Under the pieces are notes generated by a model, which worked only from the letters and a program-made list of their open reading frames with translations, was not told where the DNA came from and ran no database searches. A program made the translations under genes and the position numbers. Below are positions 1,066 to 25,884 of a stretch of 32,000 bases of DNA, one piece after another. The stretch comes from Candidatus Saccharimonadota bacterium (GTDB lineage: Bacteria > Patescibacteriota > Microgenomatia > UBA1406 > GWC2-37-13), in NCBI GenBank assembly GCA_001790095.1, contig MGBH01000001.1, positions 930,001-962,000 on the forward strand, in the 5' to 3' direction. Numbering within the stretch: position 1 is the stretch's first letter; each line of letters begins with the position of its first letter.

Positions 1066-1090
1066 ATAGTAGTTTAAATAATGATTGGCA

Positions 1091-1118: not shown

Positions 1119-1122
1119 AAAT

Positions 1123-2139: not shown

Positions 2140-2157
2140 TTCGCACCCCATACTCCT

Positions 2158-3231: not shown

Positions 3232-3234
3232 TCT

Positions 3235-3663
3235 TTAGTAAAATACCAGATAAGCTTTCTGAGGGAGGGTAATACTGTCAACTTTGACATCGAGATAAAA
3301 CTCTCCGTTAATCCCCTCGCTCTTGGTTGCGATATCAAAATATGCTTTTCCTAGATTGTCAGTATTGGGTGCTGTTGCAACAATAGTCAAATTCTCATTA
3401 TCAACACTACCCACAAACACTGTTTTTCCCGCAACTCCTAGTCCTTGACCATTTAATATGAATACAGTGACACGGATTTGTTGTTTACCATCTCCTTTTG
3501 CCTTTCTTGGATCACTTATCACATAGGAGTTCTCCGGCGAAAAGGAATTGTTGATGACGCTTGCTCTTCCACTCATATACCGCGCTTCATAAAAAAAGAA
3601 AAGTCCAGAAAAGAACATGAGAACGATAATAAAAATGAGCGAGGCTATTATAAACTTCTGCAT
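3235..3663 (-). CDS. Small membrane-anchored protein with one bacterial Ig-like (Big_1-like) domain
   Basis: An N-terminal anchor (FIIASLIFIIVLMFFSGLFFF) is followed by a beta domain of about 100 aa (QQIRVTVFILNGQGLGVAGKTVFV...GKAYFDIATKSEG...YLDVKV). The gene is convergent with the previous gene, with a 3-nt gap. Confidence 0.6.
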   Translation of the reverse strand: MQKFIIASLIFIIVLMFFSGLFFFYEARYMSGRASVINNSFSPENSYVISDPRKAKGDGKQQIRVTVFILNGQGLGVAGKTVFVGSVDNENLTIVATAPNTDNLGKAYFDIATKSEGINGEFYLDVKVDSITLPQKAYLVFY

Positions 3664-4180: not shown

Positions 4181-4210
4181 TTGACAAACTTATTATTATT
4201 GTTTTATTCT
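4181..4210 (+). promoter_or_regulatory. Sigma70-type promoter candidate giving a leaderless or near-leaderless mRNA
   Basis: TTGACA lies at 4181-4186, then an 18-nt spacer, then TATTCT at 4205-4210. The ATG at 4217 is 7 nt after the -10 element. No SD motif is present. Confidence 0.35.
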
Positions 4211-4216
4211 TAATGT

Positions 4217-4762
4217 ATGACATCTTTATCTACACACAGGTATAATCTCGATAATCTTGAGGCTTTGTTTCGGGAATTCCTTATAGTTGAAAAAGTTGCA
4301 CCGATAACTTTAAAGAATTATCTTTCCGACCTCAGACACTTTTTCGGATGGTTTGTTTTTTTTCTTCATTCAAAAAAGCACAACATTTTGATTGATCAAA
4401 AAAACGAGAATGATCTTGTAAGCTACATAAATGTTGATATCGTTAACGCATATAAAACATATTTGGAAAGTAATGCTTTACCGGTAAAAACAATAAATAG
4501 AAGACTTTCTACTATCCGCAAATTCTGTACATTGTGCATAAAACAAGGCTGGATGAAGGAAAATCCGGCTAAGAAAGTGATAAATATCGTATCCAGTGTC
4601 CCCTCCTCTGAAAGCTCATCACAGGTTGTAATATCAAAAGATCCAATCAAAGAACTGTTAAACGAGTTTTGTAAGGATCTTACAAGCCAAAACTTAACTT
4701 CACATGAAATCAATCTCGTTCAAAATGATATTGATGAGTTTCTCACCATTATTAATTATTAA
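4217..4762 (+). CDS. Stand-alone phage-integrase N-terminal SAM-like (core-binding) domain protein with no catalytic domain
   Basis: The sequence LEALFREFLIVEKVAPITLKNYLSDLRHFFGWF...IVNAYKTYLESNALPVKTINRRLSTIRKFCTLCIKQGWMKENPAKKV fits the two-part SAM-like core-binding pattern of tyrosine recombinases. The remaining ~60 aa are Ser-rich or helical. No R..HxxR..Y catalytic region is present. Confidence 0.7.
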   Translation: MTSLSTHRYNLDNLEALFREFLIVEKVAPITLKNYLSDLRHFFGWFVFFLHSKKHNILIDQKNENDLVSYINVDIVNAYKTYLESNALPVKTINRRLSTIRKFCTLCIKQGWMKENPAKKVINIVSSVPSSESSSQVVISKDPIKELLNEFCKDLTSQNLTSHEINLVQNDIDEFLTIINY

Positions 4763-4768
4763 TATCTT

Positions 4769-4936
4769 ATGAAAAATGTTTTCATGAGCGCTTTGAATAG
4801 GGCTATAAATGGCCTTAAAGAATGGACTGATCCTGCTGTTGAAGGATCTCCATATGATCCTTTTATAACTTATGCTAAGTACCCTAGCATAAAAAAACAT
4901 CTTTCTTTCCGAAGAAAAATAAGTTGGAGAGTGTAA
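4769..4936 (+). CDS. 55-codon ORF below the track cut-off, in the same frame as 4217..4762
   Basis: Translated by hand: MKNVFMSALNRAINGLKEWTDPAVEGSPYDPFITYAKYPSIKKHLSFRRKISWRV*. It lies in the same frame as the upstream gene, separated by TAA (4760-4762) plus two codons. There is no independent support for expression. Confidence 0.2.
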   Translation: MKNVFMSALNRAINGLKEWTDPAVEGSPYDPFITYAKYPSIKKHLSFRRKISWRV

Positions 4937-4949
4937 GTTTTCCTTTTTC

Positions 4950-7900
4950 ATGATAAAGATAAATACCGACTCTATTTTTCAATTTGTAAAGGCGCTTAAA
5001 AGAAAAAGTGTTCCAAAGAATGAAATTAAGCGCAGGCTTCTTTCTGTGGATAGGTTTATCAAATGGGCTCACCAGAAGAGCTATCTGGCAGATGATACGT
5101 TTAAGCAGATACAAGATGAGATTGCCAAGTTAGCGATTGGAGATCAGAGACTAGAGATTGGTAATCAATTTCCAATCACTAATCGCCAATCGCTAATCTC
5201 TAATTATTCTTTCGGCATCCAGCATTATATTGGTTTTGCTATCATATTTGTCCTCATGGCCATGCTTGGAGCAGGGCTTTATAATCAGTTCTTTAAAAAA
5301 ACACCTACACCGTTTGCATATTCAACTACTCCCCTACAAGGTGCTCGTGTCATTTCATTTCAAGGAAGATTGACTGATAGTTTGGGTAATCCCATCATCG
5401 CCCCCATCGATATCACCTACAATTTTTATACTGCACCATCTGGAGGATCTCCTATCGCCGGCTCTACTCGCGTATGTACGGCCAATCCTGATCAAGATGG
5501 AGTTTTTGCCAATCTCATAGGAGATGACAGCGGTCCTAGCTGTTCAACTCAACTTCCAGCTAACATTTTTACCGAAAATTCTGAAGTATTTCTTGGCGTC
5601 ACGATCGGATCAGAGATAACTGAGATGAGTCCTAGACAACAGATTGCGAACGTAGGATATGCCATGAATGCAGAGACACTTCAAGGCCTGCCTCCTGGCA
5701 CAACCGCATCATCAATTCCATTTATCAGTGCGCAAGGTGACCTGCTTATCGCAGCCTCAACTCCTGGTATACGTTCAACATATACGACAGCAAATTTTGT
5801 TATATCCAGTGCTCAAGCAACTACTATCCAATCAGCAAATGGAGGGGATATTACATTCAACGCAACAGATGGAGGCACACTTCGTTTTAATACTTTTAAT
5901 GGAACTTTAAACGAACGGATGACTATTACTCCCTATGGAAACGTGGGGATAAGCAATACCAATCCACGAGCTTCTCTTGATGTCATAGGAGATGCCTCTC
6001 TTTCAGGCAATCTTGTCTTTAATGGTCTAACCTCTCAGATCAGACAATTAAATGGCGGCAATTTATCTTTTGTTACATCCCCTGGTGGAGATCTTGGAGT
6101 CTCAACCAAAATGACACTCCTTAATAACGGAAATCTTGGTATTGGAACAACTGTTCCTATCTATAAACTTGATGTTGCAGGTGCTGCTTCAATCGCAGGC
6201 AATCTTATGACTGGCGGACAGATGCAGCTCGGAAGATTTGTAGCAGATCCGACAGCAGTTGGATCAGGGTCTATGTACTTTAATACAACAAACAACACTA
6301 TCTACTACTATAACGGAACTGACTGGACACAGGTCGGATCTGGTGGAGGCGGAGGTGACAATGTATGGCAACGGGTACTTGATGGAGTGGTCATACCTAA
6401 AATAGCTGCTGATGCACTTAATCTCGGCAACTCTGCAACAGCCTCAGCTACCGTGCACTTAGCTGGAAAAACAGGAGATAATTCATTTATAAATACGGGT
6501 AATTTTGGCATTGGGACGACAGGACCTGCTATGAAGCTGGATCTTGGAACAGGGTATTCAACAAACAACTCAACATTCAGAACAGGAACATATGAATTAC
6601 AACCATATGCATTAAACAACGCTTTTCTTGCGGAAAATGCTTATTATAACGGTTCTACCTGGACAAGGAGAAATACTGGATATGCCGAAGGATTTCAGTT
6701 TTTTAATGGTCAGACTTTATTCTTCAATAACACCAGTGGAACTGGTAGTTTTTCTGCAACTTATCCGTTCAAGACCGATTCTGGCAACTCCGGATCAGTA
6801 GCTCTCGGAGGAAATATTAATACAGCAACAGGTAATTATAGTGGTTCATCAATGGTTGTTTTAGGTACTGGCAACGTCGGAATTGGCACTACCTCTCCCC
6901 TTGAAAAACTTGATGTCCGTGGTAATGCCACAGTATCTGGATATCTCACGATCGGACAGAGTGGAGCTTTAAGAAGTCAGTATGGTCCTCTTAACTTAGC
7001 ATATAAGTCTGGAGTGAACTCATGGACTACGGGAATGGTGCTTAAGGATGGAAGTGGTAATGTAGGGATTGGAACTACTAATCCAGAAACCAAATTACAT
7101 GTATATACCAGTACCGCAATAGGAACATATCGAGATATTTATGCAAAACAAATTATTGACGATGCAGATGCAAGACTCCAAATTAGATCGGGTGATACGG
7201 GCAACTATGGCTCAGGATTAATTCTCTCAACAGCGGATAAAAGCTGGGCAATGATGGCACAAGCAAGCTCAGATAATAATAATTTTTATATAGGCTATAA
7301 ATCAAGCGCAACCGATGAAGATATAATGGCTGGTTCATCAAAGCACTTTACTATCAATACCTCTGGAAATGTTGGAATCGGGACAACAAATCCCCTTGAA
7401 AAACTTGATGTCCGTGGTAATGCCACAGTATCTGGATATCTCACGATCGGACAGAGTGGAGCTTTAAGAAGTCAGTATGGTCCTCTTAACTTAGCATATA
7501 AGTCTGGAGTGAACTCATGGACTACGGGGATGGTATTGCAGGATAGTACAGGCAATGTTGGAATCGGGACATTAAATCCTACTTCTTTTAAACTTGAGGT
7601 TGCAGGTGACATAGGCCCTGAAGCAGATAATACTCGTGATTTAGGTTCTGCATCACGCTATTGGAATACTATCTACGTAAATAATATCGTGGGAAGTGGA
7701 GCTTTGGGATATTGGCAGATAGATAGTAATGTTCTTCATCCTGCTAATCAATGGGCGTCTGTTGTTGATTTAGCAATTGGTGGAACATCTACTTCATCTG
7801 CTAAATTTCAAGTATACGGAAGTGGTACCAATGCAGGAACAGCATCTTCATCAGGACAACTCACTTTCAACAATAATTCAGGAACGCATTATGTCAACTC

Positions 7901-10900
7901 ACTTTGGAACCGTCCCCTATCCTTCCGCACTTCCCCTGGTGGAGATACAGGACTGACAGATAGATTATATATTGCAGCAAATGGCAATGTGGGAGTGGGG
8001 ACGACAAATCCAGTGGCAAAACTGGATATTAAAGGAACTTTCTCCTCTGAAGTTGGATATTCATCTTACACTGGCGATGGTGTTTGGAATGCAAATGCTC
8101 GACCTTCTAAAATTATTACGCCGAATTTGCATGAATTGCGATTTGGTTACTCTGATGCAGGAGGAGGTCAATATTATCCATCTATCGGTTTTGCAGCAAA
8201 TAGTACTGCCGTAAATGATTCTCTATTAATTCTCCAGTCAAGAGTCGCTTTAGGTACACCAGAATCATACAATCGATGGCAAGTAAGCGGAGGGGGAACA
8301 ATCAGCTGGGGTGCAGGAAGTGGTGCGGTTGATACAAACCTCTATCGCGTTGCAGCTAATATATTAGGCACCGATGACACACTATATGTAGGCGGCAATA
8401 TAGGCATCGGTACAACTTCCCCCCTTGAAAAACTTGATGTCACAGGCAATGCATCTGCCTCAGGATATGTCACGGTCGGACAAGCAGGAGCTTTAAGAAG
8501 TCAATATGGTCCGCTTAATCTTGCATACAAATCAGGATTAAATACCTGGACAACGGGGATGGTGTTAAAGGATGGAACGGGATATGTGGGGATTGGAACA
8601 ATTAATCCAACGTATTTATTAGATGTATCAGGCGGATCTGGAATTGTGGGAAGATTTAGCGGAAGAGTGATTGGAGGCGATGCAGTTGCTTCAAATGAAT
8701 TCGTAACGTTCGGTCAGTTGGCTGGAGGATCAGGACAGTATTGGCAAAGATCAGGAGAAGCTTTATCACCAAGCAATATTTGGAACTCAATAAATGTGGG
8801 AGCAACTGCAACAGCATCTGCTTATGTACATCTTGCAGGTACTCCGAATGAAAACTCATTTGTAAATACAGGAAATTTTGGCATTGGAACTATCTCTCCT
8901 GTTGCTAAACTTGATGTAGTAGGTAATGCAAGCATCTCCGCTTCTTTATCTTATAGAAGTGGAGCCCCAAATTATGTAAATGTATTAGGTAACCAACCTC
9001 TATCATTCCGAACTTCACCAGGAGGTGACGCAGGATTAACTGATAGATTTACTCTCTTGGCAAATGGAAATATAGGTATAGGAACAACAGCGCCTGCTAC
9101 AAAACTTGACATCGACACAAGTTCAAATACAACCGGATTGCGACTTCGCGGATTAGCGGAAACTGTTGAGATATCAGATATCTATGTTGGATCAAATGGC
9201 ACATTCATATTAGATAATACAGTCGGAACAGGTAGTAGTGGATATATTGATCTTCGTCCTGAAGATAATGATTATGGCATGGTCCTTCGTGAATCCGACG
9301 GTACAGGAACAGGCTCATTTGCCAATTTTTATGTCGTTGACGCTGCTACAGACTACATGAATATTATCGTCAATGGAGCTCAATCAACAACAGGATTGGT
9401 TGTAAATGCAAACGGAAATGTGGGGATAAACAATACTTCCCCCCTTGAAAAACTTGATGTCACAGGCAATGCATCTGCCTCAGGATATGTCACGGTCGGA
9501 CAAGCAGGAGCTTTAAGAAGTCAATATGGTCCTCTTAACTTAGCATATAAGTCTGGAGTGAACTCATGGACTACGGGGATGGTTCTTCAGGATGGGACAG
9601 GAAACGTGGGGATTGGGACAACAAATCCAGTGGCAAAATTACAGGTCTATCCTGGATATACCACAGGAACATACAATGGTATCAATGTATCTGGCGGGAC
9701 AACAGGTGGAACTTATAACGCTTTCTCAACGGATGCATTTGTAAACAGTGGAGCTGGAACAGTTACCGGTTTATCGATCACCAGCAGGATACAAAACGCC
9801 GCTACTTCTTCTAATGCATACGGCATTAATGCTACTGTATATAAGGGTAGCGGTTCAACCGGAACGACAACTGCTATTTATGGAGCTAATTTAAGAGTTC
9901 TAAACTCAAGTAGTGATGTTATTACAGATACTTACGGTCTAAAAATAGCTGACATCTCAAATTCCGGAACCATGAGCAATACTTATGGAGTGTATGTAGG
10001 AGACATTACTGCTGGAACCCAAACCAATACCCCATTCTCATTTTATGCATCTGACGCAAACGCATTAAATTACTTTGCTGGAAATGTCGGAATAGGTTCA
10101 TCTGCTCCCACCTCCTTCAAACTTGAGGTTGCAGGTGACATAGGCCCTGATGCTGATGGTACTCGGGATATTGGTTCACCCTCCAGGTACTATGACACCG
10201 TCTATGCAAACAATGTGGTAGGACTTGGTGCTCTGGGATACTGGTCAAGAGGTACGGGCGTATTGTTTCCTTCAACCACCACTGATGGAGTAGCTGCGAC
10301 AGGTTCAGCAACCACCGTTGCAACATTCACCGCCTCAGGGACAAATGATGCAGCACGTTTGGGAGGATCAGCTAACTATATAACCGTATCCCCCAGTGGA
10401 GATCTTTCATTCACCGGAGCTAATGCTGATGCGATCAATAAAGTATCAGGGACGTTAAATATAAACACAACCAATAACCAGGCGATAACTACCGGGACTG
10501 GTCAGGTCACCTTGGCGGGTAATGTGGATGCCACCAACGGACTTGATGTGACTACCGCTAACCTTACGGTTGGAGGAGCAAACTTTACCGTGGTTCCGGG
10601 TACGGGAAATATCACAACAGCGGGTACTGTTTCCATTGCAACCGGTCAATCATACACAGGAGCAGGCACCGTAACCCTCTCCTCTGCTGCTGCATCGAGT
10701 CTTACCATCAACTCAGGAACAACCGGTGCCATAGCTATTGGGAATGATGCATCTGCCGAAACAATTGGTCTGGGTACTGGTGCGGCAGCAAAAACAATAA
10801 CCATAGGCAATACCACAGGCGCAACCGCACTCAATCAACGGGTGGGTACAGGGAACTATACTCTTGACGGAGTTGCTGGATCAACCTATGCGTTTGGTGC

Positions 10901-18263: not shown

Positions 18264-18283
18264 TTTTACATCATTTGAGATGG

Positions 18284-18395
18284 TAGTCTGGATTCCCACC
18301 TTCGTGGGAATGACAGTACAAAGCAGGAATGATAATCAGGAATGATAATACAGAACTAATAGAAGTCATCCCTGCGTAGGCAGGGATCCAGTCTA
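18284..18395. repeat. 112-bp twin-hairpin element with 31-bp imperfect terminal inverted repeats and an internal 13-bp tandem duplication
   Basis: Hairpin 1 is ATTCCCAC(18292-18299)-cttc-GTGGGAAT(18304-18311). Hairpin 2 is ATCCCTGC(18368-18375)-gtag-GCAGGGAT(18380-18387). Arms 18284-18314 and the reverse complement of 18365-18395 match at 23/31, with compensatory stem changes. caggaatgataat occurs twice in tandem (18324-18336, 18337-18349). The motif GGAATGA(C/T)A occurs three times. Confidence 0.85.
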
Positions 18396-18411
18396 TTAAA
18401 ACATCTTTCCC

Positions 18412-18441
18412 TTGACAATTATATCGCAACTATATTACATT
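18412..18441 (+). promoter_or_regulatory. Sigma70-type promoter candidate for the second fibre gene, with a very short leader
   Basis: TTGACA lies at 18412-18417, then an 18-nt spacer, then TACATT at 18436-18441. The ATG at 18452 is 10 nt after the -10 element. No SD motif is present. Confidence 0.3.
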
Positions 18442-18451
18442 GATACTATAC

Positions 18452-21400: not shown

Positions 21401-21832
21401 ATACTTCCGCAAGTAGTAGCCTACGATAAAGAAGGTCCCCATCATATTGATTATGGTCTTTTGTCAGTGCTTACCATCAAAGAACTTAAAAAGCTGAATC
21501 ATGATATTGGTTTGACGAGCACGGGAGATATTCATATGATTGAAGATTCAAATGGCGGATATGATTTGAAAACCAAAGATGATACATTTTTTACCCGAAT
21601 AGGCGCTTTTGCTGAATTAGTTGCGGCGAAAATGCAGGCGGGTGTTATAGAGACCAAAAAGTTGCTCATCAACGGAGTTGATCTTATGAAAAAAATAACT
21701 GATCTTGAAAACCATAATGATGCCCTGCAGCAACAAGTGGACAAACTTAAACAGGAAAACACTGCTTTGAAAAATCAACAGACAAATCTAGAAAAACGTT
21801 TGGAAGTATTAGAGCAAAAGATAAGAAACTAA
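18452..21832 (+). CDS. N-terminally anchored tail-fibre-like protein with CBM-like module and Peptidase_S74 intramolecular-chaperone domain
   Basis: The track ORF starts at TTG 18440. I prefer ATG 18452 (MKNSLKPHQDF...). The protein has a TM anchor (VVVLLTFFLLFGFFTYKLIVFV) and three GNVGIGTTxPAxKLH motifs. It also has a CBM-like module, the S74 signature ASSLRFKKNITPL...MGMIAEEV...IDYGLLSVLTIKELKKL, and a C-terminal coiled coil (DLENHNDALQQQVDKLKQENTALKNQQTNLEKRLEVLEQK). Confidence 0.88.
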   Translation: MKNSLKPHQDFMRFKIYSYMRHVVVLLTFFLLFGFFTYKLIVFVKETYAVVGDLDIVGSATTIEVLSTKTGSLTLDTTACKNLQGVPRPLLKAASTIGGIDCDTSITIAAAGALTAGTYNGQTISSASNLTGSLTVASGLTVSAGAITLPDNSIASADVNFNYAAAASKGGAATDLSCTNCVALTTETAGNYIATITGNGQVGVAGSGAENAAATLSIVADSIGDTQLAYNTGQHLTTTNAPTFAGGTFTSTVNMADTKYLFMGDASAGNYFGSNGTYLTMYNGGASGLSFYVQQSIPITYIYSPNIFFGLAAGGTSIHTRGSTVNFGETGNIGVENFYMSSAERLNFFYSNGSTATQVGDISASDASWFRINQNTVKNIFTPQYIRADSGLFVKSTSYGISSNGILLNGSLSGTYSNALTLSSASNAYSGASLAVSGNITSSAGDLTISGGNISITNNAGGVDFNDANSYWLRTATNHGLYWDTTNNTWEWHSAGVDKWRVDLSGNTVQAGDLTVSGTGNSSFAGNVYLTGNVAVAGMSAIPATYNNTNILPNPSFEVATSTNYDGWAGSASGGTVTRTSNGISNHDGAYGMELNVTTAGTGTTNINSTRQPISPSTTYTLSTWAKVNTACGDGFHLRAYWMNAAGAYISVSDPYSNSGAVTTSWNLYKGNVTSPATAYSVRIYIYNNLPTNACTLYVDQVSFRPMIDADVLVNGNVGIGTTVPADKLHTTGSIRVNGAIANGLKFTSNGTTSSDHLLTTRGGTSWLYLRNWADDTYKNLAVGTLYGATSITVPGTSDSYIMGDVGIGTTAPANKLHVNGNISLSTNIKFTGGVPTLETAFDDFIFKMDTDATSGNGRFGFFQGATEMVVFKGSGNVGIGTTAPANKLHVNGQIRWYGRSYVDFTNNYMDQASPYIEVRNGFTGGLFGITAYASSLRFKKNITPLEVDSNKIYDLRLVSFNWKSQEDGQIKAMGMIAEEVDKILPQVVAYDKEGPHHIDYGLLSVLTIKELKKLNHDIGLTSTGDIHMIEDSNGGYDLKTKDDTFFTRIGAFAELVAAKMQAGVIETKKLLINGVDLMKKITDLENHNDALQQQVDKLKQENTALKNQQTNLEKRLEVLEQKIRN
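20098..20570 (+). other. CBM4_9-like carbohydrate-binding module
   Basis: The stretch NILPNPSFEVATSTNYDGWAGSASGGTVTRTSN..HDGAYGMELNV...STTYTLSTWAKV...TSWNLYKGNVTSPATAYSVRIYIYNN...LYVDQVSFRP matches the classic N.sFE....gW ... G..sl.v ... Y.ls.W.k ... dd.s. pattern. Confidence 0.55.
21251..21510 (+). other. Peptidase_S74 (endosialidase/tail-spike C-terminal intramolecular chaperone) domain
   Basis: A-S-S-L-R-F-K-K-N-I aligns with the family motif S-D-R-R-L-K-E-N-I. The candidate nucleophile Ser is at 21254-21256, and the Lys five residues later is at 21269-21271. The downstream pattern GMIAEEVDKILPQVV...IDYGLLSVLTIKELKKL matches the rest of the domain. Confidence 0.7.
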
Positions 21833-21896
21833 TTTACATTTATCTTCCGCCGCCACCATCATGCATGTACAAAATCATAAATATCACCATAAATGT

Positions 21897-22733
21897 ATGA
21901 ATGAACTAAAAATAAAAATTCTTATTGTTGTCACCCTCTTTTTTCTTATATTGCTAGGTGTAGACGTATTTTTTGGAGACTCATTCCGATCTTTGTTTTC
22001 AAAAAAAACAAAAGTATCGCCTGATGTTTTAATGGTAACTAAACCTATCCATTCACTCATTGGAAAAGTAGTTAAGATCGAAAAAGATAAGCTAACTATT
22101 TCGCATGAGTCAACTAATACAGTCAATGCTCCACTTACCAATTTTACAGTCAAAGTCCCAAAAAACTTCCTTGTGAGCGTCACGTTTCATCCTATCCCCT
22201 ATCATTTCTCACAAACAGATCCTATCCAACAGATTCCTTTTATCAAATATCAAGACCTTGAGCTCGGGGAGATCGTTGTAATTCAAACTAATGATGACCT
22301 ACGTATTACAACGGGCAAAATCCCTCTTGCAAGTCAGATAAGCATCGTAAGTTCTTCCAATTTCATCCTTGGTGAGATCCTTTCTATCACAGATCATGTT
22401 CTTTCTGTTAAGGGCCGTGCACAACTCATGCCGACTGATATATCCACCACAGTAGAACAAGAGTTTACCAGAGAAAAGCTATATTCAGTGCAGGTTGACC
22501 AAAACACTGAAATATCATATGTTCCATCAGAACCATCCTCGACACTTTTATCAAGCGAACCACCAGCTCCCCCTCCTCCAAAACAAGCTTCATTTGCCGA
22601 TCTTAAACCCGGGATGACTCTTTATATATATACAAATAAGAACGTTTTGAAGAGTCCATCTGTTCTGGCCCTTCGTATTGAACCTTTTGGACTACCCGCT
22701 ACTACCTCTGTAGAAGACACTGAAAACAAATAA
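21897..22733 (+). CDS. Membrane-anchored hypothetical protein with Pro-rich segment
   Basis: The track ORF starts at 21861. ATG 21897 (MNELKIKILIVVTLFFLILLGVDVFF) gives a more typical N-terminal anchor. There are two similar beta-barrel-like segments (LIGKVVKIEKDKLTISHES; ILGEILSITDHVLSVKGRAQL) and an EPPAPPPPK linker. No family was recognised. Confidence 0.55.
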   Translation: MNELKIKILIVVTLFFLILLGVDVFFGDSFRSLFSKKTKVSPDVLMVTKPIHSLIGKVVKIEKDKLTISHESTNTVNAPLTNFTVKVPKNFLVSVTFHPIPYHFSQTDPIQQIPFIKYQDLELGEIVVIQTNDDLRITTGKIPLASQISIVSSSNFILGEILSITDHVLSVKGRAQLMPTDISTTVEQEFTREKLYSVQVDQNTEISYVPSEPSSTLLSSEPPAPPPPKQASFADLKPGMTLYIYTNKNVLKSPSVLALRIEPFGLPATTSVEDTENK

Positions 22734-22754
22734 ATATATATCATATATTGTATT

Positions 22755-23438
22755 ATGGACAGATCAAATAAAAAAGAAGCCGCTGTTACTCTTCTGGAGA
22801 TCATGATGATTGTGGCCATAATTACTCTTCTTGTTGTAGCGGTTATATCTCTTCTTGATCCTGTTGAGCAAATTGCACGTTCAAGAGATACTAAGCGCAA
22901 ACAAGACCTCAACGTGTTGCAAAAAAAATTTGAGGAATGGTATAACGATAAAGGATGTTACCCACGACTTAGTGAGGTCGCCTATACATCAAGTATCTCA
23001 GGTCTGGCGGGCAAAATCTGTTCAACCAAAGATGACTCTCCCAATCTCACCTATTTTACAGACAACATCATCTGTGATCCACAATCTCCTTTTTATGAAT
23101 ATCTCTATGTGACAACAGGAGCCTCAACCTGTCCAACTGCGTATGTCGTTTATTCGCGTCTTGCCGCAACATACGTGCGTGAAAATGACGTATATGACTG
23201 CGGGCCCCATGGCTGCGGAATTGCGCCTTCCTACGGATACGACTATCTTGTATCAAGTCCAAACGCCGTAATCTCTGTATCTGATGATTTTTACTGTTTT
23301 GATCGAAGTAGCCGCTGTACCAGTTGCGGCACTTATGAATCATGCGTAAATGCAATGTATGATCAAGTATGCATAACTATCTACGCTTCAAAATACCTAT
23401 GCTGTCAAGCAGAGCCAGGAGCTGGATACTGCCCTTGA
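22755..23438 (+). CDS. Type IV pilin/pseudopilin-like protein with a Cys-rich globular domain
   Basis: The N-terminus MDRSNKKEAA/VTLLEIMMIVAIITLLVVAVISLL has a short charged leader. Glu is at +5 of the predicted mature end and is followed by a hydrophobic helix, a prepilin-type pattern. Ala-Val replaces the canonical Gly-Phe. The C-terminal ~160 aa contain 14 Cys. Confidence 0.55.
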   Translation: MDRSNKKEAAVTLLEIMMIVAIITLLVVAVISLLDPVEQIARSRDTKRKQDLNVLQKKFEEWYNDKGCYPRLSEVAYTSSISGLAGKICSTKDDSPNLTYFTDNIICDPQSPFYEYLYVTTGASTCPTAYVVYSRLAATYVRENDVYDCGPHGCGIAPSYGYDYLVSSPNAVISVSDDFYCFDRSSRCTSCGTYESCVNAMYDQVCITIYASKYLCCQAEPGAGYCP

Positions 23439-23463
23439 CAATCCCCTCTCCTTTTCCTACACT
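23435..23463 (+). promoter_or_regulatory. Sigma70-type promoter candidate overlapping the pilin stop codon
   Basis: TTGACA lies at 23435-23440 and contains stop TGA 23436-23438. A 17-nt spacer follows, then TACACT at 23458-23463, then ~40 nt to ATG 23503. Confidence 0.35.
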
Positions 23464-23502
23464 AAATAGATACAAAATATCAGTTATTAATTCCTCTTTT
23501 TT

Positions 23503-25536
23503 ATGGAGCAAGAAACAAGTTTACTAAAAAGTATTAAATCGACCGCATTATATGTCATAATATTTCTCTTCCCTCTTTTTTTTCTTCCGTTTACTCAAGA
23601 ATATTTTTTGACCGGTAAAGTATATTTTTTATTATTTGGATCACTGCTTCTTCTTGTTTTAGCTACTCTTGAGTTTCTCGTCACAAAAAAATTTATTTGG
23701 GAAAAAAAACCTTTTGACAACACCGTAATCCTGTTTTTCATCACGATCGTGCTTTCTACCATCATATCATCACCCAATAAAATCCAAGCCATACTCAACC
23801 CAACGCTTGGCATCATGCCTTTATTTTCTTTTTTAATCCTTTATTTTTTTATATCACGAGAAAAAAACACAACTATTAAAAATGCTCTTGTCTATCTGTC
23901 CTCGTGTGTGGTGGCGCTTGTTTCCATCGTCATTTTTTTCAATCCGTTCAAACAAGCAGAACTACCAGTTATATTTGATTTTTTAAAGAACCCAGGCTTT
24001 TCTCCCCTTGGCAATTCGCTTGATGCTATATTTTTTCTTGGTTTTGCCGCAGTCCTTGCTGCATCTTCAATCTTTTCAAAGACAAACAAATCTCAAACAG
24101 AACGCATCCTTTCTTTTGGAAGCTTTACTCTCTCTCTTTCCGCAATAGGTTTTCTCATTTTTTCGTTGGTAAAGACAAAGGATGCATTTATTCTTCCCCC
24201 TTTTAATCTCTCTTGGTACGGTGCAGTTGAAACACTCAAACAACCTCTCACTGCTCTTTTTGGGGTTGGTGTTGATAATTATGCCAGTATGTTCACGCGC
24301 GTAAAAGATACTGCATATAATGCATCAAACATGTGGCAGATCAGCGCATTCAACGCCTCTCGATCAACATTTCTTCATATTCCAACAGAGCTTGGTATGT
24401 TTGGTGCTGTCGCGTTTGGCTTACTCATACTTCAGATCATCAGACACGGGTTTGCTATCCAAAAACAACACGGAAATAAATACGTGTTTCTCCCGATACT
24501 TTTTTTCCTGATTATTACTCTACTTTTTCCTCCATCATTAACTGTGTTTTTTCTTCTTTTTCTCATCCTAAGCGGAGTAGGAACCCATGAAAAACACGAA
24601 GAAACCGCTGCCTTTACCCTTGACACAGGTAAAATATTGCCTTTGTATGGATCTTTTATAATCATATCCCTTCTTTTCATTGGAGCTCTTGGATATCTTG
24701 GAGGCAGATCATATGCGGCAGAAGTCTATTTCAAACGCTCACTAGATGGTTTTGCAAAAAACAACGCAAAATATGTTTATGAAAATATGCGAATGGCTGT
24801 CATAACCAATCCTTTTATCGAGCGATTCCGTTCCAATTTTTCACAAACCAACCTTTTATTAGCCAATAATATTGCAGCAAAAGCTGCCGACCCCGCAAAT
24901 GCTTCGGCAGACAAACAAACAGATTCGACCAACACCAATACTTTATCTGATCAAGACAGACAAACTATCTCTCAAGCTCTACAGGCCGCAATTGAGGAAG
25001 CAAAAGCAGCGGTTACACTCAATCCTCAAAAAGCCGTAAATTGGGAGAATTTGGCCAACATATACCGCAACATCATGAACGTTGCTCAAGGAGCCGATAG
25101 CTGGACTATATCAGCATATCAACGAGCAATTATCCTTGATCCCCAAAATCCAAGCCATAGAGTCAATCTTGGTGGAATAATGCTTTCATTCAAGAACTAC
25201 GATGAGGCTGCGAAGCTGTTTGAGCAAGCAATTGCGATAAAGCCTGACTGGCCAAATGCATATTACAATCTTGGATGGGCAGCCTACCAAAAAAAAGACT
25301 ATCAAAAAGCAGCTCAAGCCATGCAAAGCACCGTCTCTCTTCTTGACCCAAAAAAAGATGAGGCAGACTATAAAAAAGCAATGGCAGATTTGGAAGAATT
25401 TAAAAAAATGCTTCCTGAAGAGGAGGCAACAGAAGCAGCCACAACGCCTTCAAAGTTAAGTGTTCCAACTCCCTCTTCTTTGGAGATCGAACCCAAAATC
25501 AAGCTGCCAAATGAGGCAAGCCCGGAAGCTAAATAG
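23503..25536 (+). CDS. Polytopic membrane protein of the O-antigen ligase/Wzy_C family with C-terminal TPR repeats
   Basis: The first ~400 aa contain about 10 or more hydrophobic helices. The loop motif NASRSTFLHIPTELGMFGAVAFGLLIL resembles the Wzy_C H..yl....E.G..G motif. The C-terminus has TPR-like repeats (NWENLANIYRN..., AYQRAIILDPQNPSHRVNLGGIMLSFKNYDEAAKLFEQAIAIKPDWPNAYYNLGWAAYQKKDYQKAAQAMQSTVSLLDP). Confidence 0.7.
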   Translation: MEQETSLLKSIKSTALYVIIFLFPLFFLPFTQEYFLTGKVYFLLFGSLLLLVLATLEFLVTKKFIWEKKPFDNTVILFFITIVLSTIISSPNKIQAILNPTLGIMPLFSFLILYFFISREKNTTIKNALVYLSSCVVALVSIVIFFNPFKQAELPVIFDFLKNPGFSPLGNSLDAIFFLGFAAVLAASSIFSKTNKSQTERILSFGSFTLSLSAIGFLIFSLVKTKDAFILPPFNLSWYGAVETLKQPLTALFGVGVDNYASMFTRVKDTAYNASNMWQISAFNASRSTFLHIPTELGMFGAVAFGLLILQIIRHGFAIQKQHGNKYVFLPILFFLIITLLFPPSLTVFFLLFLILSGVGTHEKHEETAAFTLDTGKILPLYGSFIIISLLFIGALGYLGGRSYAAEVYFKRSLDGFAKNNAKYVYENMRMAVITNPFIERFRSNFSQTNLLLANNIAAKAADPANASADKQTDSTNTNTLSDQDRQTISQALQAAIEEAKAAVTLNPQKAVNWENLANIYRNIMNVAQGADSWTISAYQRAIILDPQNPSHRVNLGGIMLSFKNYDEAAKLFEQAIAIKPDWPNAYYNLGWAAYQKKDYQKAAQAMQSTVSLLDPKKDEADYKKAMADLEEFKKMLPEEEATEAATTPSKLSVPTPSSLEIEPKIKLPNEASPEAK

Positions 25537-25549
25537 ATAGTAGTAAGAT

Positions 25550-25884
25550 ATGGAAAAGATCGTGTCATTTTCTGATTTGATTGCATGGAAAAAAGCACAT
25601 CTTTTCCATCAGAAGAAAAATTTTGTCTCATTGATCAGTTACGAAGAGCAGCAGTAACTATTACAAGCAATATTGCAGAAGGCTTCAATAGAAAAACACC
25701 ACTAGATAAGATTCATTTTTACTATACTGCCATATCTTCTGTTAGCGAAATACAAAGCCAGTTATATATAGCCCATGACCTACAATATATCACTGTAAAG
25801 ACATTTAGTAATCTTATGAGCGAGTCTGTAGAGATTCATAAACTAATCAATGGTCTTATTAAATATATGAAAAACCATACTTAA
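25550..25884 (+). pseudogene. Four-helix-bundle protein (23S rRNA intervening-sequence protein family) disrupted by a deletion and frameshift
   Basis: Frame 2 from ATG 25550 gives MEKIVSFSDLIAWKKAH, the family N-terminus, then runs out of frame to a stop at 25655-25657. Frame 1 (track ORF 25585..25884) carries the rest: FPSEEKFCLIDQLRRAAVTITSNIAEGFNRK...SEIQSQLYIAHDLQYI. WKKAH ends at 25600 and FPSEE starts at 25603, so the ~13 residues that normally separate them are missing. A truncated 99-aa product from ATG 25585 remains possible. Confidence 0.5.

What the first reader, a model, noticed from the sequence alone, without database searches (positions are those of the whole stretch)
4217..25536. 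Locus-level hypothesis: an attachment apparatus combining anchored fibres, a pilin and a glycosylation enzyme
On one strand, with short gaps, the locus encodes the following in order:
- a SAM-like domain protein
- the giant fibre
- the S74 fibre
- an anchored Pro-rich protein
- a Cys-rich type IV pilin-like protein
- a Wzy_C/TPR membrane protein

All are envelope or surface components, and three TTGACA-type promoters are spaced through the block. A PglC-type initiating sugar transferase lies 4.4 kb further on.

The combination of phage-derived fibre modules, lectin domains, a pilin and a possible O-oligosaccharyltransferase is not a system I can name. It would fit a dedicated cell-cell adhesion machine.
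Basis: inference. Interest (0 to 1): 0.6.

Follow-up and report, generated by a model that had tools for sequence, protein, structure and literature searches.

The report
Conserved cell-surface fibre gene cluster
An uncultured ultra-small groundwater bacterium (Candidatus Roizmanbacteria) carries a gene cluster, conserved across its relatives, for membrane-anchored fibres that resemble phage tail fibres, plus a pilin-like protein and a distant relative of sugar-attaching membrane enzymes. It is most likely equipment for grabbing other cells, but the glycosylation part is only weakly supported.

Summary
The window is NCBI MGBF01000001.1:930001-962000, from a Rifle groundwater Roizmanbacteria (CPR) genome.

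**Confirmed**
- All the ORFs, the SAM-like domain, the S74 domain, the TPR repeats and the three intergenic TTGACA sites are present.

**Weaker than stated**
- Pfam does not detect Wzy_C in the window protein. Only sub-threshold hits appear, in 11 of about 90 relatives.
- The "lectin" and "Pro-rich" labels are marginal.
- PglC lies on the other strand among housekeeping genes and is seldom conserved there.

- The genes are syntenic in relatives. Two independent anchor sets of 80 loci each show the same order: SAM-like, giant fibre, variable anchored proteins, pilin-like, then the TPR membrane protein.
- The SAM-like domain is fused to the giant in 20 of 57 testable loci.

**Caveat**
- The unrelated housekeeping neighbours (M23, GDH, TrxR, Rho) are equally syntenic.
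- The TPR membrane protein separates from the fibre/pilin cassette when the region rearranges.

**Closest knowns**
- Bdellovibrio MAT fibres, which were the only meaningful PDB sequence hits.
- pilA-tfpO/pglL pairs.
- Omnitrophota giant genes next to pilin-like genes.

**Verdict:** a new variant of known surface-adhesin kinds. The unexplained feature is a cytoplasmic integrase-type SAM-like module on the giant fibres.

The parts
103..3663 (.). Conserved upstream surface-protein block, outside the finding. It holds g01 (103-1065 +), g02 (1123-2139 +, N- and C-terminal TM segments), g03 (2158-3231 +) and a Big_1-like anchored protein (3235-3663 -).
   Evidence: Big_1 1.2e-7. g02 has a weak WxLIP_PGBD hit, E 0.037. 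Big1(-) lies directly upstream of the SAM-like gene in 52 of 55 testable loci, and g01-g03 recur upstream.
4181..4210 (+). Promoter-like site TTGACA-N18-TATTCT, ending 7 nt before the SAM-like ATG.
4217..4762 (+). Soluble protein made only of an integrase-type SAM-like (core-binding) domain. It has no catalytic domain and no TM segment.
   Evidence: Pfam PF13102 1.3e-10 and PF02899 2.6e-8. XerC/XerD N-terminal region only, far below cut-off. Fused to, or directly upstream of, a giant or other large (>=500 aa) protein in 52 of 57 testable loci.
4950..18263 (+). Giant 4,437-aa N-terminally anchored fibre protein of the non-S74 type.
   Evidence: PHROG tail fibre 9942 1.9e-28. PDB hits to Bdellovibrio MAT fibres 8ol4 9.5e-6 and 8ond 1.8e-3. 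18 NVGIGTT-type motifs; composition T 13%, G 12.7%.
4959..5111 (+). Cytoplasmic half SAM-like segment at the giant's N-terminus (aa 4-54).
   Evidence: BLASTP against the SAM-like protein aa 71-121, E 2e-4. Pfam SAM_1 0.022.
5226..5282 (+). Single TM segment of the giant (aa 93-111), in a conserved HY(I/L)GF..GAGLYN context.
16767..18260 (+). Conserved C-terminal module of about 500 aa of the giant (aa ~3940-4437).
   Evidence: Found in 30-34 of the related genome loci. 558 clusters at E<=1e-3 among 1.84 billion representatives, always at the extreme C-terminus of proteins of about 1,000-7,448 aa. It follows an internal S74 domain in the orthologues of L060, L036 and L149.
18292..18387 (+). 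Two GC-rich hairpins without a T-run in the spacer between the giant and the S74 fibre (18292-18311 and 18368-18387).
   Evidence: Not a repeated element in the fetched loci.
18412..18441 (+). Promoter-like site TTGACA-N18-TACATT upstream of the S74 fibre gene (ATG at 18452).
18440..21832 (+). N-terminally anchored S74-type fibre, 1,130 aa from the TTG start or 1,126 aa from the ATG at 18452. Features: TM aa 23-41 (18506-18562), CBM-like aa 554-710 (20099-20569), S74 aa 939-993 (21254-21418), C-terminal coiled coil aa ~1077-1130.
   Evidence: PF13884 1.7e-11. PHROG tail fibre 4.5e-11. PDB 8ond Bd2133 2.4e-5. SSLRFK Ser-Lys pair. CBM E 0.034.
21861..22733 (+). Small N-terminally anchored protein of unknown family, with a PPAPPPP run near the C-terminus.
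   Evidence: No family found. TM aa 20-38. Homologues at 26-34% identity in 12 related loci, always inside the cassette.
22755..23438 (+). Cys-rich type IV pilin-like protein (227 aa, 14 Cys).
   Evidence: N-terminal AAVTLLE plus hydrophobic helix. Relatives have GFTLxE and at least 10 conserved Cys. PDB TcpA 1.3e-3 and PilA 0.075. NCBIfam PilA/GspG sub-threshold. Directly downstream of the giant in most relatives.
23435..23463 (+). Promoter-like site TTGACA-N17-TACACT, overlapping the pilin stop codon and upstream of the TPR membrane protein gene.
23503..25536 (+). Membrane protein with about 10-11 TM segments and a C-terminal TPR domain (aa ~480-635, 24940-25407). The region aa ~170-305 (24010-24417) corresponds to the Wzy_C-like stretch seen in relatives.
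   Evidence: TPR families down to 3.6e-11. AlphaFold models: pLDDT 76.4 for the full length and 81.5 for the membrane domain. Wzy_C sub-threshold in 9/73 and 2/19 relatives; best is P0112 at 1.4e-4, residues 176-312 against profile positions 23-148 of 149.
25585..25884 (+). Four-helix-bundle / 23S-rRNA-IVS (Avd-like) protein. Probably a hitch-hiker and not part of the system.
   Evidence: PF05635 8.9e-28. It sits at different positions in relatives.
29903..30496 (-). PglC-type initiating sugar transferase. Probably not part of the unit.
   Evidence: PF02397 1.3e-51. Opposite strand, between Rho and CsoR. Present in 11 of 80 related loci.

Best explanation
This is a lineage-wide chromosomal surface-fibre locus of Candidatus Roizmanbacteria (CPR/Patescibacteria). 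It is not a prophage.

**Proposed mechanism**
- The locus makes fibres homologous to phage tail fibres. Instead of sitting on a virion, they are held in the cell membrane by a single N-terminal TM segment, and the remaining 1,000-4,300 residues are exported.
- The 1,130-aa fibre should trimerise with the help of its C-terminal S74 intramolecular-chaperone domain and then cut that domain off at Ser939. This would expose a mature tip, with a CBM-like domain about 230 residues upstream of the cleavage site.
- The 4,437-aa fibre lacks the protease motif and should keep its conserved 500-aa C-terminal module. I infer this module to be the folding or trimerisation nucleus.
- On the cytoplasmic side, the giant carries half of an integrase-type SAM-like domain. 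It is partnered with, and in many relatives fused to, a complete SAM-like domain. I read this as a docking or assembly module of unknown partner.
- A Cys-rich type IV pilin-like protein travels with the giant. It either presents the fibres or helps pass them through the wall.
- The neighbouring TPR membrane protein is a very divergent member of the O-antigen-ligase (Wzy_C) superfamily, with its conserved loop and TPR domain outside the cell. It plausibly transfers a lipid-linked glycan onto the pilin and/or the Thr/Ser-rich fibres, as TfpO/PglL do for pilins encoded next to them.
- The overall function would be recognition of, and attachment to, a host cell.

**Shown:** gene content, domain matches, membrane anchors, conservation of gene order, and the gene fusion.

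**Inferred:** trimeric fibre structure, autocleavage, surface exposure, the adhesion role, glycosylation and topology.
For: **Source and lineage**
- The source is the NCBI contig MGBF01000001.1, and relatives are named Roizmanbacteria.

**Fibre homology**
- PHROG tail-fibre families hit at 1.9e-28 and 4.5e-11.
- The PDB sequence hits of both fibres are Bdellovibrio MAT fibres 8ond, 8ol4 and 8oml. Those fibres are experimentally shown to be trimeric surface and prey-handling adhesins, with S74 and non-S74 subtypes (PMC10769870).
- S74 domain 1.7e-11, with the Ser-Lys pair present.
- Each of the four proteins after the SAM-like gene has one N-terminal TM segment.

**Not a prophage**
- No capsid, terminase or tail genes are present.
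- The chromosomal position, next to M23-GDH-TrxR-Rho, is the same in most (43-62) of the 80 genomes.

**Synteny**
- A pilin-like gene lies directly upstream of the TPR membrane protein gene in 31 of 68 testable loci, by tblastn at 1e-5.
- The giant's C-terminal module is found in 16 of 25 loci with full flanks.
- The giant-(fibre)-(small anchored protein)-pilin cassette stays together where the region is rearranged (L010, L057).

**SAM-like link**
- The domain is fused to the giant in 20 loci and sits directly upstream in 32, of 57 testable. The fusion was confirmed by Pfam in L141 (SAM_1 1.1e-9).

**Evolutionary rate**
- Fibre and small anchored proteins are 26-34% identical to those of the closest relative. 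Housekeeping neighbours are 63-85% identical. This fits an interaction surface under diversifying pressure.

**Wzy_C relationship**
- It is the only non-repeat Pfam family hit by several family members.
- The hits are collinear and cover nearly the whole profile.
- The best scores come from the minority that has His at position 287.

**Precedent for the pairing**
- 21 of 31 pglL homologues, and pilO, lie next to pilin genes (PMC3643930).
Against: - The unrelated downstream genes M23, GDH, TrxR, CsoR and Rho are as syntenic as the fibre genes. Conserved order therefore partly reflects low rearrangement in this clade.
- The TPR membrane protein is far more conserved (45-65% identity) than the fibres. 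It has its own promoter-like site. It stays with M23/GDH when the region is rearranged. It also occurs without fibres nearby (L071, L075).
- No Wzy_C hit reaches Pfam's cut-off: the best is 22 bits against 31.7.
- hhalign against an enterobacterial WaaL alignment gives a probability below 1%.
- Foldseek against the PDB finds nothing at E<=0.001.
- The His that is essential in WaaL/PglL is Arg in the window protein.
- No PglL_A motif was found. No T4P machinery genes are in the window.
- There are no expression, localisation or structural data for the fibres.
Confidence: 0.55

Rival explanations
1. There are two unrelated neighbours rather than one machine. The SAM-like, giant, fibre and pilin cassette is a surface-fibre unit. 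The TPR membrane protein is a core envelope enzyme, for example a ligase or polymerase for a wall or membrane glycopolymer, that merely sits beside it. PglC serves general glycan synthesis.
For: - The TPR membrane protein is highly conserved and is always beside M23/GDH/TrxR.
- In L010, L040, L045, L057 and L062 it lies between GDH and M23, on the opposite strand to the pilin and giant genes.
- In L071 and L075 it occurs with no fibre within 10 kb.
- It has a separate promoter-like site at 23435.
- The Wzy_C superfamily includes polymerases and ligases as well as protein O-OTases (PMC3643930).
Against: - The gene stays adjacent to the pilin or giant gene down to 35-39% identity (L141, L078, L073, L063).
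- In most loci it is co-directional with them, with gaps of 20-130 bp.
- pilin-OTase adjacency is a known functional pairing.
Confidence: 0.3
2. This is an export apparatus rather than an adhesion pilus. The pilin-like protein is a pseudopilin that helps push or thread the giant fibres through the cell wall, using the cell's T4P/T2SS-like machinery encoded elsewhere. The fibres remain the only adhesins.
For: - The pilin-like gene follows the giant gene directly in L064, L036, L060, L092, L133, L141 and L149.
- Homologues are annotated as PulG/GspG-type pseudopilins.
- Omnitrophota giant genes are likewise flanked by T2SS-like genes and small genes with class III signal peptides (bioRxiv 10.1101/2023.11.21.568195).
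Against: - No secretion ATPase, platform or secretin-like gene lies in the window or in the 10-kb flanks of relatives.
- L073, L078 and L063 have a giant but no pilin-like gene in between.
- The N-terminal TM anchors suggest ordinary Sec insertion.
Confidence: 0.2
3. The block is a degraded prophage or a tailocin-like remnant, and its tail-fibre genes happen to be retained.
For: PHROG tail-fibre hits and an S74 domain. A SAM-like integrase fragment sits at the left edge. The GC content of the giant gene (41-49%) is above that of its flanks (30-40%).
Against: - No other phage gene is present.
- No tRNA gene or att-like repeat was found.
- The chromosomal site and order are the same in most of the 160 related loci.
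- The fibres carry N-terminal TM anchors.
- The SAM-like domain is fused in frame to the fibre in 20 loci.
- No close relative was found in IMG/VR.
- The higher GC is explained by the Gly/Thr/Ala-rich composition.
Confidence: 0.03
4. The fibres form a structural envelope layer. They make a protective or spacing coat, in an S-layer or sheath role, rather than a host-recognition device.
For: - The proteins are very large, repetitive and Thr/Gly/Ser/Asn-rich.
- The C-terminal module is conserved across the clade. A host-specific tip would be expected to vary more.
- The neighbouring upstream block has WxL-interacting-protein-like and Big_1-like wall-associated proteins.
Against: - The closest characterised relatives are adhesins.
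- The shaft length and the second fibre are highly variable between close relatives.
- A CBM-like domain and an S74-exposed tip are typical of receptor-binding proteins.
Confidence: 0.12

Closest known systems
Bdellovibrio bacteriovorus MAT (mosaic adhesive trimer) fibres, S74 and non-S74 subfamilies (Caulton et al. 2024, PMC10769870)
   Same: - These are bacterial chromosomal homologues of phage tail fibres or spikes, used on the cell surface by a bacterium that lives off other bacteria.
- Both subtypes occur side by side: an S74-terminated fibre with a Ser-Lys autoprotease, and non-S74 fibres with other tips.
- The shaft has repeated V-G-x-G..P...L-type capping-loop motifs.
- There is direct sequence similarity: 8ond 2.4e-5 and 8ol4 9.5e-6.
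   Different: - MAT fibres are about 1,000 aa, have a cleavable signal peptide followed by a conserved 130-aa beta-rich N-domain, and act in a diderm.
- Here the fibres have an uncleaved-looking N-terminal TM anchor. One is 4,437 aa. The giant has a cytoplasmic SAM-like module and a clade-specific 500-aa C-terminal module.
- The conserved MAT N-domain was not tested.
Phage endosialidase / tail-spike C-terminal intramolecular chaperone (Peptidase_S74)
   Same: The Pfam S74 domain is above threshold, with the catalytic Ser and Lys five residues apart in an SxxRxKxNI context.
   Different: - The motif is SSLRFK rather than SDxxxK.
- About 135 further residues, including a coiled coil, follow the S74 domain (aa 939-993).
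- The protein is membrane-anchored, not virion-borne.
- Cleavage was not demonstrated.
pilA-tfpO (pilO) and pilin-pglL pairs: Wzy_C-type O-oligosaccharyltransferases encoded next to their pilin substrate (PMC3643930)
   Same: A pilin-like gene is followed immediately, on the same strand, by a polytopic membrane protein with a Wzy_C-like region. Most invariant residues lie in a large loop that I infer to be extracytoplasmic.
   Different: - Wzy_C is only sub-threshold.
- The WaaL H338 / PglL H349 equivalent is Arg in 87% of the family, including the window protein.
- No PglL_A/B motifs are present.
- A C-terminal TPR domain is added.
- The organism has no LPS.
- Glycosylation is untested.
Omnitrophota giant genes with neighbouring T2SS/T4P-like genes and small class III signal-peptide genes (West-Roberts et al. 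2023 preprint)
   Same: A very large surface protein, proposed to mediate prey or host adhesion in an ultra-small host-dependent bacterium, is encoded beside pilin-like genes.
   Different: Those proteins are much larger, have different domain content (dockerin, peptidases, SecA-like) and lie next to a secretion system of more than 10 genes. None of that is present here.
Saccharibacteria type IV pili and surface adhesins used for episymbiosis (PMC12206443, PMC11665869)
   Same: Both are CPR bacteria. Pilins and surface adhesins have been experimentally tied to host binding, and pilin O-glycosylation has been predicted.
   Different: That is a different CPR lineage. Its pilins are encoded with pil machinery genes, and no phage-fibre-like or SAM-like-fused giants have been described there.

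Membership tests
Peptidase_S74 / intramolecular chaperone auto-processing domain | Pfam PF13884 match above the gathering score | tested here: met
   44.6 bits against a cut-off of 22, E 1.7e-11, aa 939-993 of the 18440-21832 product.
Peptidase_S74 / intramolecular chaperone auto-processing domain | Catalytic Ser-Lys dyad (SDxxxK) | tested here: met
   S939-S-L-R-F-K944. Asp is replaced by Ser. Relatives have SDIRLK, SDVRLK and SSRRYK.
Peptidase_S74 / intramolecular chaperone auto-processing domain | Autoproteolytic release of the C-terminal domain after trimerisation | not testable with these tools
   Needs expression of the C-terminal fragment and an S939A control.
Bdellovibrio-type MAT fibre family | Sequence similarity of the beta-helical shaft to solved MAT fibres | tested here: met
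   8ond Bd2133 at 2.4e-5 (S74 fibre aa 726-900) and 1.8e-3 (giant). 8ol4 at 9.5e-6 (giant aa 618-696).
Bdellovibrio-type MAT fibre family | Conserved ~130-aa beta-rich domain immediately after a signal peptide (PMC10769870) | not tested
   The N-termini here are TM anchors. The giant additionally has a cytoplasmic SAM-like segment. No comparison with the MAT N-domain was made.
Bdellovibrio-type MAT fibre family | Homotrimeric fibre displayed on the cell surface | not testable with these tools
Needs multimer modelling or EM.
Type IV pilin / pseudopilin | Class III signal: short basic leader, G/A cleavage site, Glu at +5, hydrophobic alpha-1 helix | tested here: met
   MDRSNKKEAA|VTLLEIMMIVAIITLLVV has Glu at +5 if cleavage follows the second Ala. 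Nine of 11 relatives have (G/A)(F/Y/M)T(L/I/F)xE. PDB TcpA and PilA align from mature residue 2.
Type IV pilin / pseudopilin | Pfam N_methyl or NCBIfam pilin model above cut-off | tested here: not met
   N_methyl 14.4 bits against 21.2. PilA_Myxo 23.9 against 400 and GspG 21.1 against 88.85. Two relatives carry a precomputed PF07963.
Type IV pilin / pseudopilin | Encoded with, or processed by, prepilin peptidase and assembly ATPase/platform | tested here: not met
   No pilB/C/D/M-like gene lies in the window or in the 10-kb flanks of relatives. The rest of the genome was not examined.
O-antigen ligase superfamily (Pfam Wzy_C, PF04932) | Pfam Wzy_C match above the gathering score (31.7 bits) | tested here: not met
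   The window protein has no hit at E<=10. None of the 120 closest homologues has a precomputed Wzy_C hit. The best relative scores 22.2 bits, E 1.4e-4.
O-antigen ligase superfamily (Pfam Wzy_C, PF04932) | Remote homology supported across the family | tested here: inconclusive
   - For: 9/73 plus 2/19 members hit Wzy_C at E<=0.05. It is the only non-repeat family hit by several members, and the hits are collinear (protein 176-312 against profile 23-148/149).
- Against: hhalign against a 32-sequence WaaL alignment gives a probability below 1%, and a profile search of PDB sequences finds no WaaL or PglL.
O-antigen ligase superfamily (Pfam Wzy_C, PF04932) | Conserved Arg, Arg and His of the periplasmic loops (E. 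coli WaaL R215, R288, H338; PMC3643930) | tested here: not met
   By motif and hhalign register, H338 corresponds to position 287, which is Arg in the window protein. Across the family it is R 87%, H 5%, S 5%. Equivalents of R215 and R288 could not be assigned.
O-antigen ligase superfamily (Pfam Wzy_C, PF04932) | WaaL/PglL-like fold | tested here: inconclusive
PglL/TfpO-type protein O-oligosaccharyltransferase | Adjacent co-directional pilin gene | tested here: met
   The gap in the window is 64 bp. A pilin-like gene lies within 1.5 kb upstream on the same strand in 31 of 68 testable loci.
PglL/TfpO-type protein O-oligosaccharyltransferase | PglL_A (PF15864) motif | tested here: not met
   Not among the Pfam hits of the window protein or of 92 relatives. 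PilO also lacks it (PMC3643930).
PglL/TfpO-type protein O-oligosaccharyltransferase | Transfer of an Und-PP-linked glycan to Ser/Thr of a protein | not testable with these tools
   Needs glycoproteomics or heterologous reconstitution.
Tyrosine recombinase / phage integrase | C-terminal catalytic domain (Phage_integrase, R-H-R-Y) | tested here: not met
   Only the N-terminal SAM-like domain is matched. XerC/XerD models match profile positions up to about 96-126 of about 290-300, far below cut-off. Orthologues are of the same short type or are fused to the fibre.
Diversity-generating retroelement (considered because of the Avd-like gene) | Reverse transcriptase plus a TR/VR repeat pair next to Avd | tested here: not met
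   No RT gene lies among the window ORFs. The direct repeats are only intragenic fibre-module duplications. The Avd model scores 22.9 bits against a cut-off of 80, and the gene fits the generic four-helix-bundle family.
Prophage / tailocin | Capsid, terminase, tail tube/sheath or baseplate genes; att sites | tested here: not met
   PHROG hits are tail fibre only. There is no tRNA gene. The chromosomal context is conserved in most of the 160 related loci.

The most novel reading that the evidence does not exclude
The giant fibre may be a transmembrane coupling device, not just an adhesin. Its N-terminus carries an integrase-type SAM-like (DNA core-binding) module in the cytoplasm, as one and a half copies. 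These are either fused to the fibre or supplied by the upstream gene. The module is joined through one TM helix to a host-contacting fibre of 1,000-7,000 residues. Host contact could then be relayed to the inside of the cell, for example by sequestering or releasing a DNA-binding module. The logic would be reminiscent of MyRF, which also combines an S74 domain, a membrane anchor and a DNA-binding domain. Alternatively, the module could tether the nucleoid or incoming DNA at the contact site. In parallel, a TPR-fused Arg-variant branch of the Wzy_C superfamily would be a new class of protein O-glycosyltransferase acting on pilins and fibres in bacteria that lack LPS.
Probability: 0.1. Interest if true: 0.8.

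Novelty: new variant of a known kind. Interest (0 to 1): 0.55.

Why it matters
**Why it matters**
- All cultivated Patescibacteria live attached to other microbes, yet outside Saccharibacteria the molecules that find and hold the host are unknown.
- This locus offers concrete candidates that are conserved across the clade. The fibres have solved relatives with a known prey-recognition role. A CBM-like domain and an S74-exposed tip could be expressed and tested for binding. Their variable shafts and second fibres could help predict host range from metagenomes.

**What is left unexplained**
- A cytoplasmic integrase-type SAM-like domain is systematically fused to, or paired with, giant surface fibres. 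I found no description of this in the searchable literature.
- A 500-aa C-terminal module family of 558 clusters has no annotation.
- A TPR-bearing family only distantly related to O-antigen ligases could be a protein glycosylation enzyme in organisms that lack LPS.

**What it does not show**
- It does not, on present evidence, establish a single new "machine".

Tried and rejected
**Searches that found nothing useful**
- Foldseek of the full-length TPR membrane protein model against the PDB returned only TPR proteins.
- Foldseek of the membrane-domain model returned nothing at E<=0.001.
- hhalign of the family against E. coli WaaL alone and against a 32-sequence WaaL alignment was not significant.
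- A profile search of PDB sequences with the membrane domain found no relevant hit.
- NCBIfam on the membrane domains found nothing relevant.
- An IMG/VR scan with the S74 fibre C-terminal half found no relative.
- Rfam and tRNA scans of the window were empty.
- PDB sequence searches with two putative lectin-like segments of the giant found nothing.
- BLASTP of the post-S74 tail against the giant's C-terminal module showed no similarity.
- The two spacer hairpins are not a repeated element in the fetched loci.

**Technical failures**
- The first SAM-like alignment was too diverse for a collection scan.
- A 110-sequence Pfam scan exceeded the size limit.

**Readings rejected**
- Prophage or tailocin, and DGR: see the membership tests.
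- PglC as part of the unit: it is on the opposite strand, in a housekeeping run, and found in 11 of 80 loci.
- The generic promoter and terminator scan as evidence: its counts are at chance level.

Full report
**Source.** The 677-aa product of 23503-25536 is encoded identically on NCBI GCA_001790045.1 contig MGBF01000001.1 (1.217 Mb) at 953503-955536. The window is therefore MGBF01000001.1:930001-962000. The same sequence occurs in a Rifle (ANAN16) ENA scaffold and in a JGI metagenome. Homologues are named Candidatus Roizmanbacteria, Microgenomates or Patescibacteria. The window has no tRNA gene and no Rfam match.

**Check of the observation.** The six ORFs exist on the + strand with gaps of 187, 176, 28, 21 and 64 bp.
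- *4217-4762.* This is an integrase-type SAM-like domain and nothing else: Pfam PF13102 1.3e-10 and PF02899 2.6e-8. The XerC/XerD models match only their N-terminal third. There is no TM segment.
- *4950-18263.* This encodes 4,437 aa with no Pfam or NCBIfam family. It gives strong PHROG tail-fibre hits (1.9e-28 and 6.6e-18). It has one TM segment at aa 93-111, 18 NVGIGTT-type motifs and a Thr/Gly/Ala/Ser/Asn-rich composition.
- *18440-21832.* This has Peptidase_S74 at aa 939-993 (1.7e-11). The catalytic spacing is S939-SLRF-K944, and there is an N-terminal TM segment. Public gene calls start at the ATG at 18452.
- *21861-22733.* This has an N-terminal TM segment and no known family. At 7.6% Pro with one PPAPPPP run, it is hardly "Pro-rich".
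- *22755-23438.* This has a class III-like leader (…KKEAA|VTLLE…), 14 Cys, sub-threshold pilin model hits and weak PDB hits to TcpA and PilA, starting at mature residue 2. Its relatives carry the canonical GFTLxE and at least 10 conserved Cys.
- *23503-25536.* This has about ten hydrophobic segments and a clear TPR domain. Pfam Wzy_C is not detected, even at E<=10 on aa 1-460.
- *Promoter-like sites.* The three TTGACA sites are real, at 4181, 18412 and 23435. All three are intergenic and sit directly before genes. The window count is 6 against 2.5 expected. The generic promoter and terminator scan is at chance level.
- *PglC.* The protein is real (1.3e-51) but lies on the minus strand, within Rho-PglC-CsoR-TrxR-GDH.
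- *"Lectin" domains.* The only support is one marginal CBM similarity (E 0.034, aa 554-710 of the S74 fibre). Two other candidate segments gave nothing.

I anchored on the TPR membrane protein and fetched 80 loci from different species-level genomes, at 37-65% identity. tblastn of all window proteins and ORF maps of 27 loci show a recurrent layout.
- The order is: Big1-like(-) | SAM-like, then giant, then a variable insert, then pilin-like, then the TPR membrane protein, then M23.
- The insert may hold S74-type or other 600-1,500-aa anchored proteins, the small anchored protein, a four-helix-bundle gene, or nothing.
- A pilin-like gene lies within 1.5 kb upstream on the same strand in 31 of 68 testable loci.
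- The giant's C-terminal module occurs in 16 of 25 loci with at least 8 kb on both sides.
- In L073, L078 and L063 the giant gene abuts the TPR membrane protein gene. In L064, L036 and L060 only the pilin gene intervenes.

I then anchored independently on the SAM-like protein in metagenome contigs: 222 confirmed loci, of which 80 were kept.
- The SAM-like domain is fused in frame to the giant in 20 loci. It is followed within 2.5 kb by a giant or other large protein in 32 more. That is 52 of 57 testable loci.
- One fusion (L141) was confirmed by Pfam (SAM_1 1.1e-9).
- L141 shows the whole mini-locus (giant with fused SAM, pilin, TPR membrane protein) with the TPR membrane protein at only 35% identity to the window's.
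- Where the giant ends inside the locus, a pilin-like gene follows in L092, L133, L141 and L149.

The adjacency is therefore not fortuitous, and the gene fusion is direct evidence that the SAM-like protein and the giant work together.

**Limits of the synteny argument.**
- M23, GDH, TrxR, CsoR and Rho, which have no plausible link to fibres, are conserved beside the TPR membrane protein gene just as often, in 62, 49, 47, 49 and 43 of 80 loci. This clade evidently rearranges little.
- In L010, L040, L045, L057 and L062 the TPR membrane protein gene sits between GDH and M23, on the strand opposite to the pilin and giant genes. The giant-(fibre)-(small protein)-pilin cassette stays together there.
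- In L071 and L075 the TPR membrane protein gene has no fibre genes within 10 kb.
- It is also much more conserved (59-64% to the closest relatives) than the fibres and the small anchored protein (26-34%), and it has its own promoter-like site.
- The robust unit is SAM-like, giant, accessory anchored proteins and pilin. The link to the TPR membrane protein is looser.
- PglC is found in only 11 of 80 loci.

**What the fibres are.**
- Sequence searches of the PDB with both fibres return, apart from spurious antibody matches, only Bdellovibrio proteins: 8ond (Bd2133), 8ol4/8onf and 8oml.
- These are the mosaic adhesive trimer (MAT) fibres. They are homotrimeric homologues of phage tail spikes on the predator surface and in the invasion vesicle.
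- They have 13 S74-terminated and 8 non-S74 members, with demonstrated S74 self-cleavage and a V-G-x-x..P...L capping-loop motif (PMC10769870).
- The window repeats this logic, with one S74 fibre and one non-S74 giant carrying the related NVGIGTTxPxxKL motif.
- Orthologous giants in L060, L036 and L149 contain a canonical internal S74 domain (SDIRLK, SDVRLK) immediately before the conserved C-terminal module. The window giant has no S[DSE]x[RK]xK motif.
- The C-terminal module (aa ~3940-4437) defines a family of 558 clusters (E<=1e-3) among 1.84 billion representatives. It always lies at the extreme C-terminus of proteins of about 1,000-7,448 aa.
- Phage fibres fold from C-terminal chaperone domains, and in some orthologues this module lies beyond the cleavage site. 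I therefore infer a folding or trimerisation role rather than a host-specific tip. That is inference.
- A prophage origin of the locus is excluded by the conserved chromosomal context, the TM anchors, the absence of any other phage gene and the absence of close relatives in IMG/VR.

**The SAM-like module.** Giant aa 4-54 resemble the second half of the SAM-like protein (BLASTP 2e-4; Pfam 0.022). A conserved TM segment follows. With the positive-inside rule and a single TM segment, this module is cytoplasmic and the fibre is outside. I found no paper that mentions integrase SAM-like domains in connection with CPR. Its role (docking or assembly, regulation, or DNA contact) is unknown.

**The TPR membrane protein.**
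- None of its 120 closest homologues has a precomputed Wzy_C hit.
- Scanning family members one by one, Wzy_C is nevertheless the only non-repeat family hit repeatedly: 2 of 19 (best 0.0088) and 9 of 73 (best 1.4e-4).
- I predicted that the minority with His at alignment position 287 would score best. Four of the five His-bearing members tested do: P0112 1.4e-4, P0115 1.5e-4, P0090 1.8e-3 and P0076 6.5e-3; the fifth, P0049, gave no Wzy_C hit at E<=0.1. The hits cover residues 176-312 against profile positions 23-148 of 149. All remain below the 31.7-bit cut-off.
- Position 287 is Arg in 87% of the family, including the window protein. By motif and by hhalign register it corresponds to WaaL H338, one of three residues conserved in WaaL and PglL (PMC3643930).
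- I conclude that it is probably (about 0.7) a very divergent branch of the Wzy_C superfamily. Its activity (protein O-OTase, ligase or polymerase) is open.
- Most invariant residues lie in the loop at aa 225-301. The two predicted beta-strands (63-67 and 370-374) must share a side of the membrane. With the positive-inside rule, this puts that loop and the TPR domain outside the cell. That topology is inference.
- The pilin-then-Wzy_C-like gene order matches pilA-pilO, and 21 of 31 pglL loci. This is the best argument for glycosylation of the pilin or the fibres.

**Transcription units (inferred).** The three promoter-like sites, and two GC-rich hairpins without a T-run in the spacer between the giant and the S74 fibre, suggest three units: SAM-like with the giant; S74 fibre, small protein and pilin; and the TPR membrane protein with the four-helix-bundle gene.

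**Comparison and novelty.** Bacterial use of phage-fibre homologues as adhesins is known from Bdellovibrio. Giant adhesin genes beside pilin-like genes are known from Omnitrophota. Pilin-OTase pairs are known. Pili and adhesins are known to drive CPR episymbiosis in Saccharibacteria. The following appear to be new:
- The combination of these elements as a conserved Roizmanbacteria locus.
- The N-terminal membrane anchoring of the fibres.
- The cytoplasmic SAM-like module, fused or paired.
- The C-terminal module family.
- The TPR-fused, Arg-variant Wzy_C-like family.

I class it as a new variant of a known kind, with interest 0.55.

Noticed in passing
window 103-3663: Three co-directional surface-type proteins (g01, g02 and g03) and a divergent Big_1-like anchored protein are as conserved beside the SAM-like gene as the finding itself. 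Big1(-) lies directly upstream in 52 of 55 loci. g02 weakly resembles the WxL-interacting-protein peptidoglycan-binding domain (E 0.037).
   Followed up: partly
window 25585-25884: This four-helix-bundle / 23S-rRNA-IVS protein weakly resembles DGR Avd, but no reverse transcriptase or TR/VR pair is present. In relatives the gene sits at different places: between giant and fibre, before the pilin gene, or between GDH and TrxR. It behaves like a small mobile hitch-hiker. A PD-(D/E)XK PDDEXK_3 domain appears at the equivalent spot in L092 (17289-18410).
   Followed up: partly
L060:3567-8804, L036:901-8523, L149:10677-19793: The orthologous giants carry a canonical internal S74 domain (SDxRLK) about 50-70 residues before the conserved 500-aa C-terminal module. 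In those species the module would be cut off with the chaperone. The window giant lacks the motif.
   Followed up: partly
window 11991-12290 and 14046-14345 (also 6853-9673): Inside the giant gene there is a 300-nt duplication at 93% identity, 2,055 nt apart, and four copies of a 277-nt module at 68-77% identity. This points to recent intragenic module duplication. Public gene calls for the same gene differ (4,437 aa in NCBI, 2,416 aa in the ENA scaffold, and a 2,557-aa representative), perhaps because the repeats are hard to assemble.
   Followed up: no
window 18292-18311 and 18368-18387: Two perfect 8-bp-stem GC-rich hairpins without a T-run lie in the spacer between the giant and the S74 fibre, just upstream of the TTGACA site at 18412. 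They could be a terminator, attenuator or processing site. They are not a repeated element in the fetched loci.
   Followed up: partly
window 4001-5000 versus 5001-18000: GC is 30.5% around the SAM-like gene and its upstream spacer, against 41-49% within the giant gene. This is most simply explained by the Gly/Thr/Ala-rich coding of the giant rather than by foreign origin.
   Followed up: no
window 28417-29478 and 27003-28322 (minus strand): The thioredoxin-reductase-like and glutamate-dehydrogenase-like proteins each seem to contain a low-complexity Asn/Ser/Gln/Lys-rich insertion (for example NFQLSRSNYQSNSNDQLKTENSLKIAKLKTENF in TrxR). Pfam matches Pyr_redox_2 in two stretches. This was not compared with relatives.
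   Followed up: no
L045:13274-19603, L062:13216-20898, L055:13071-21965: In the rearranged clade, giant TM proteins of 2,100 to more than 2,960 aa lie next to M23 and the pilin gene but do not match the window giant by BLASTP at 1e-4. A different or very diverged fibre type occupies the same slot.
   Followed up: no
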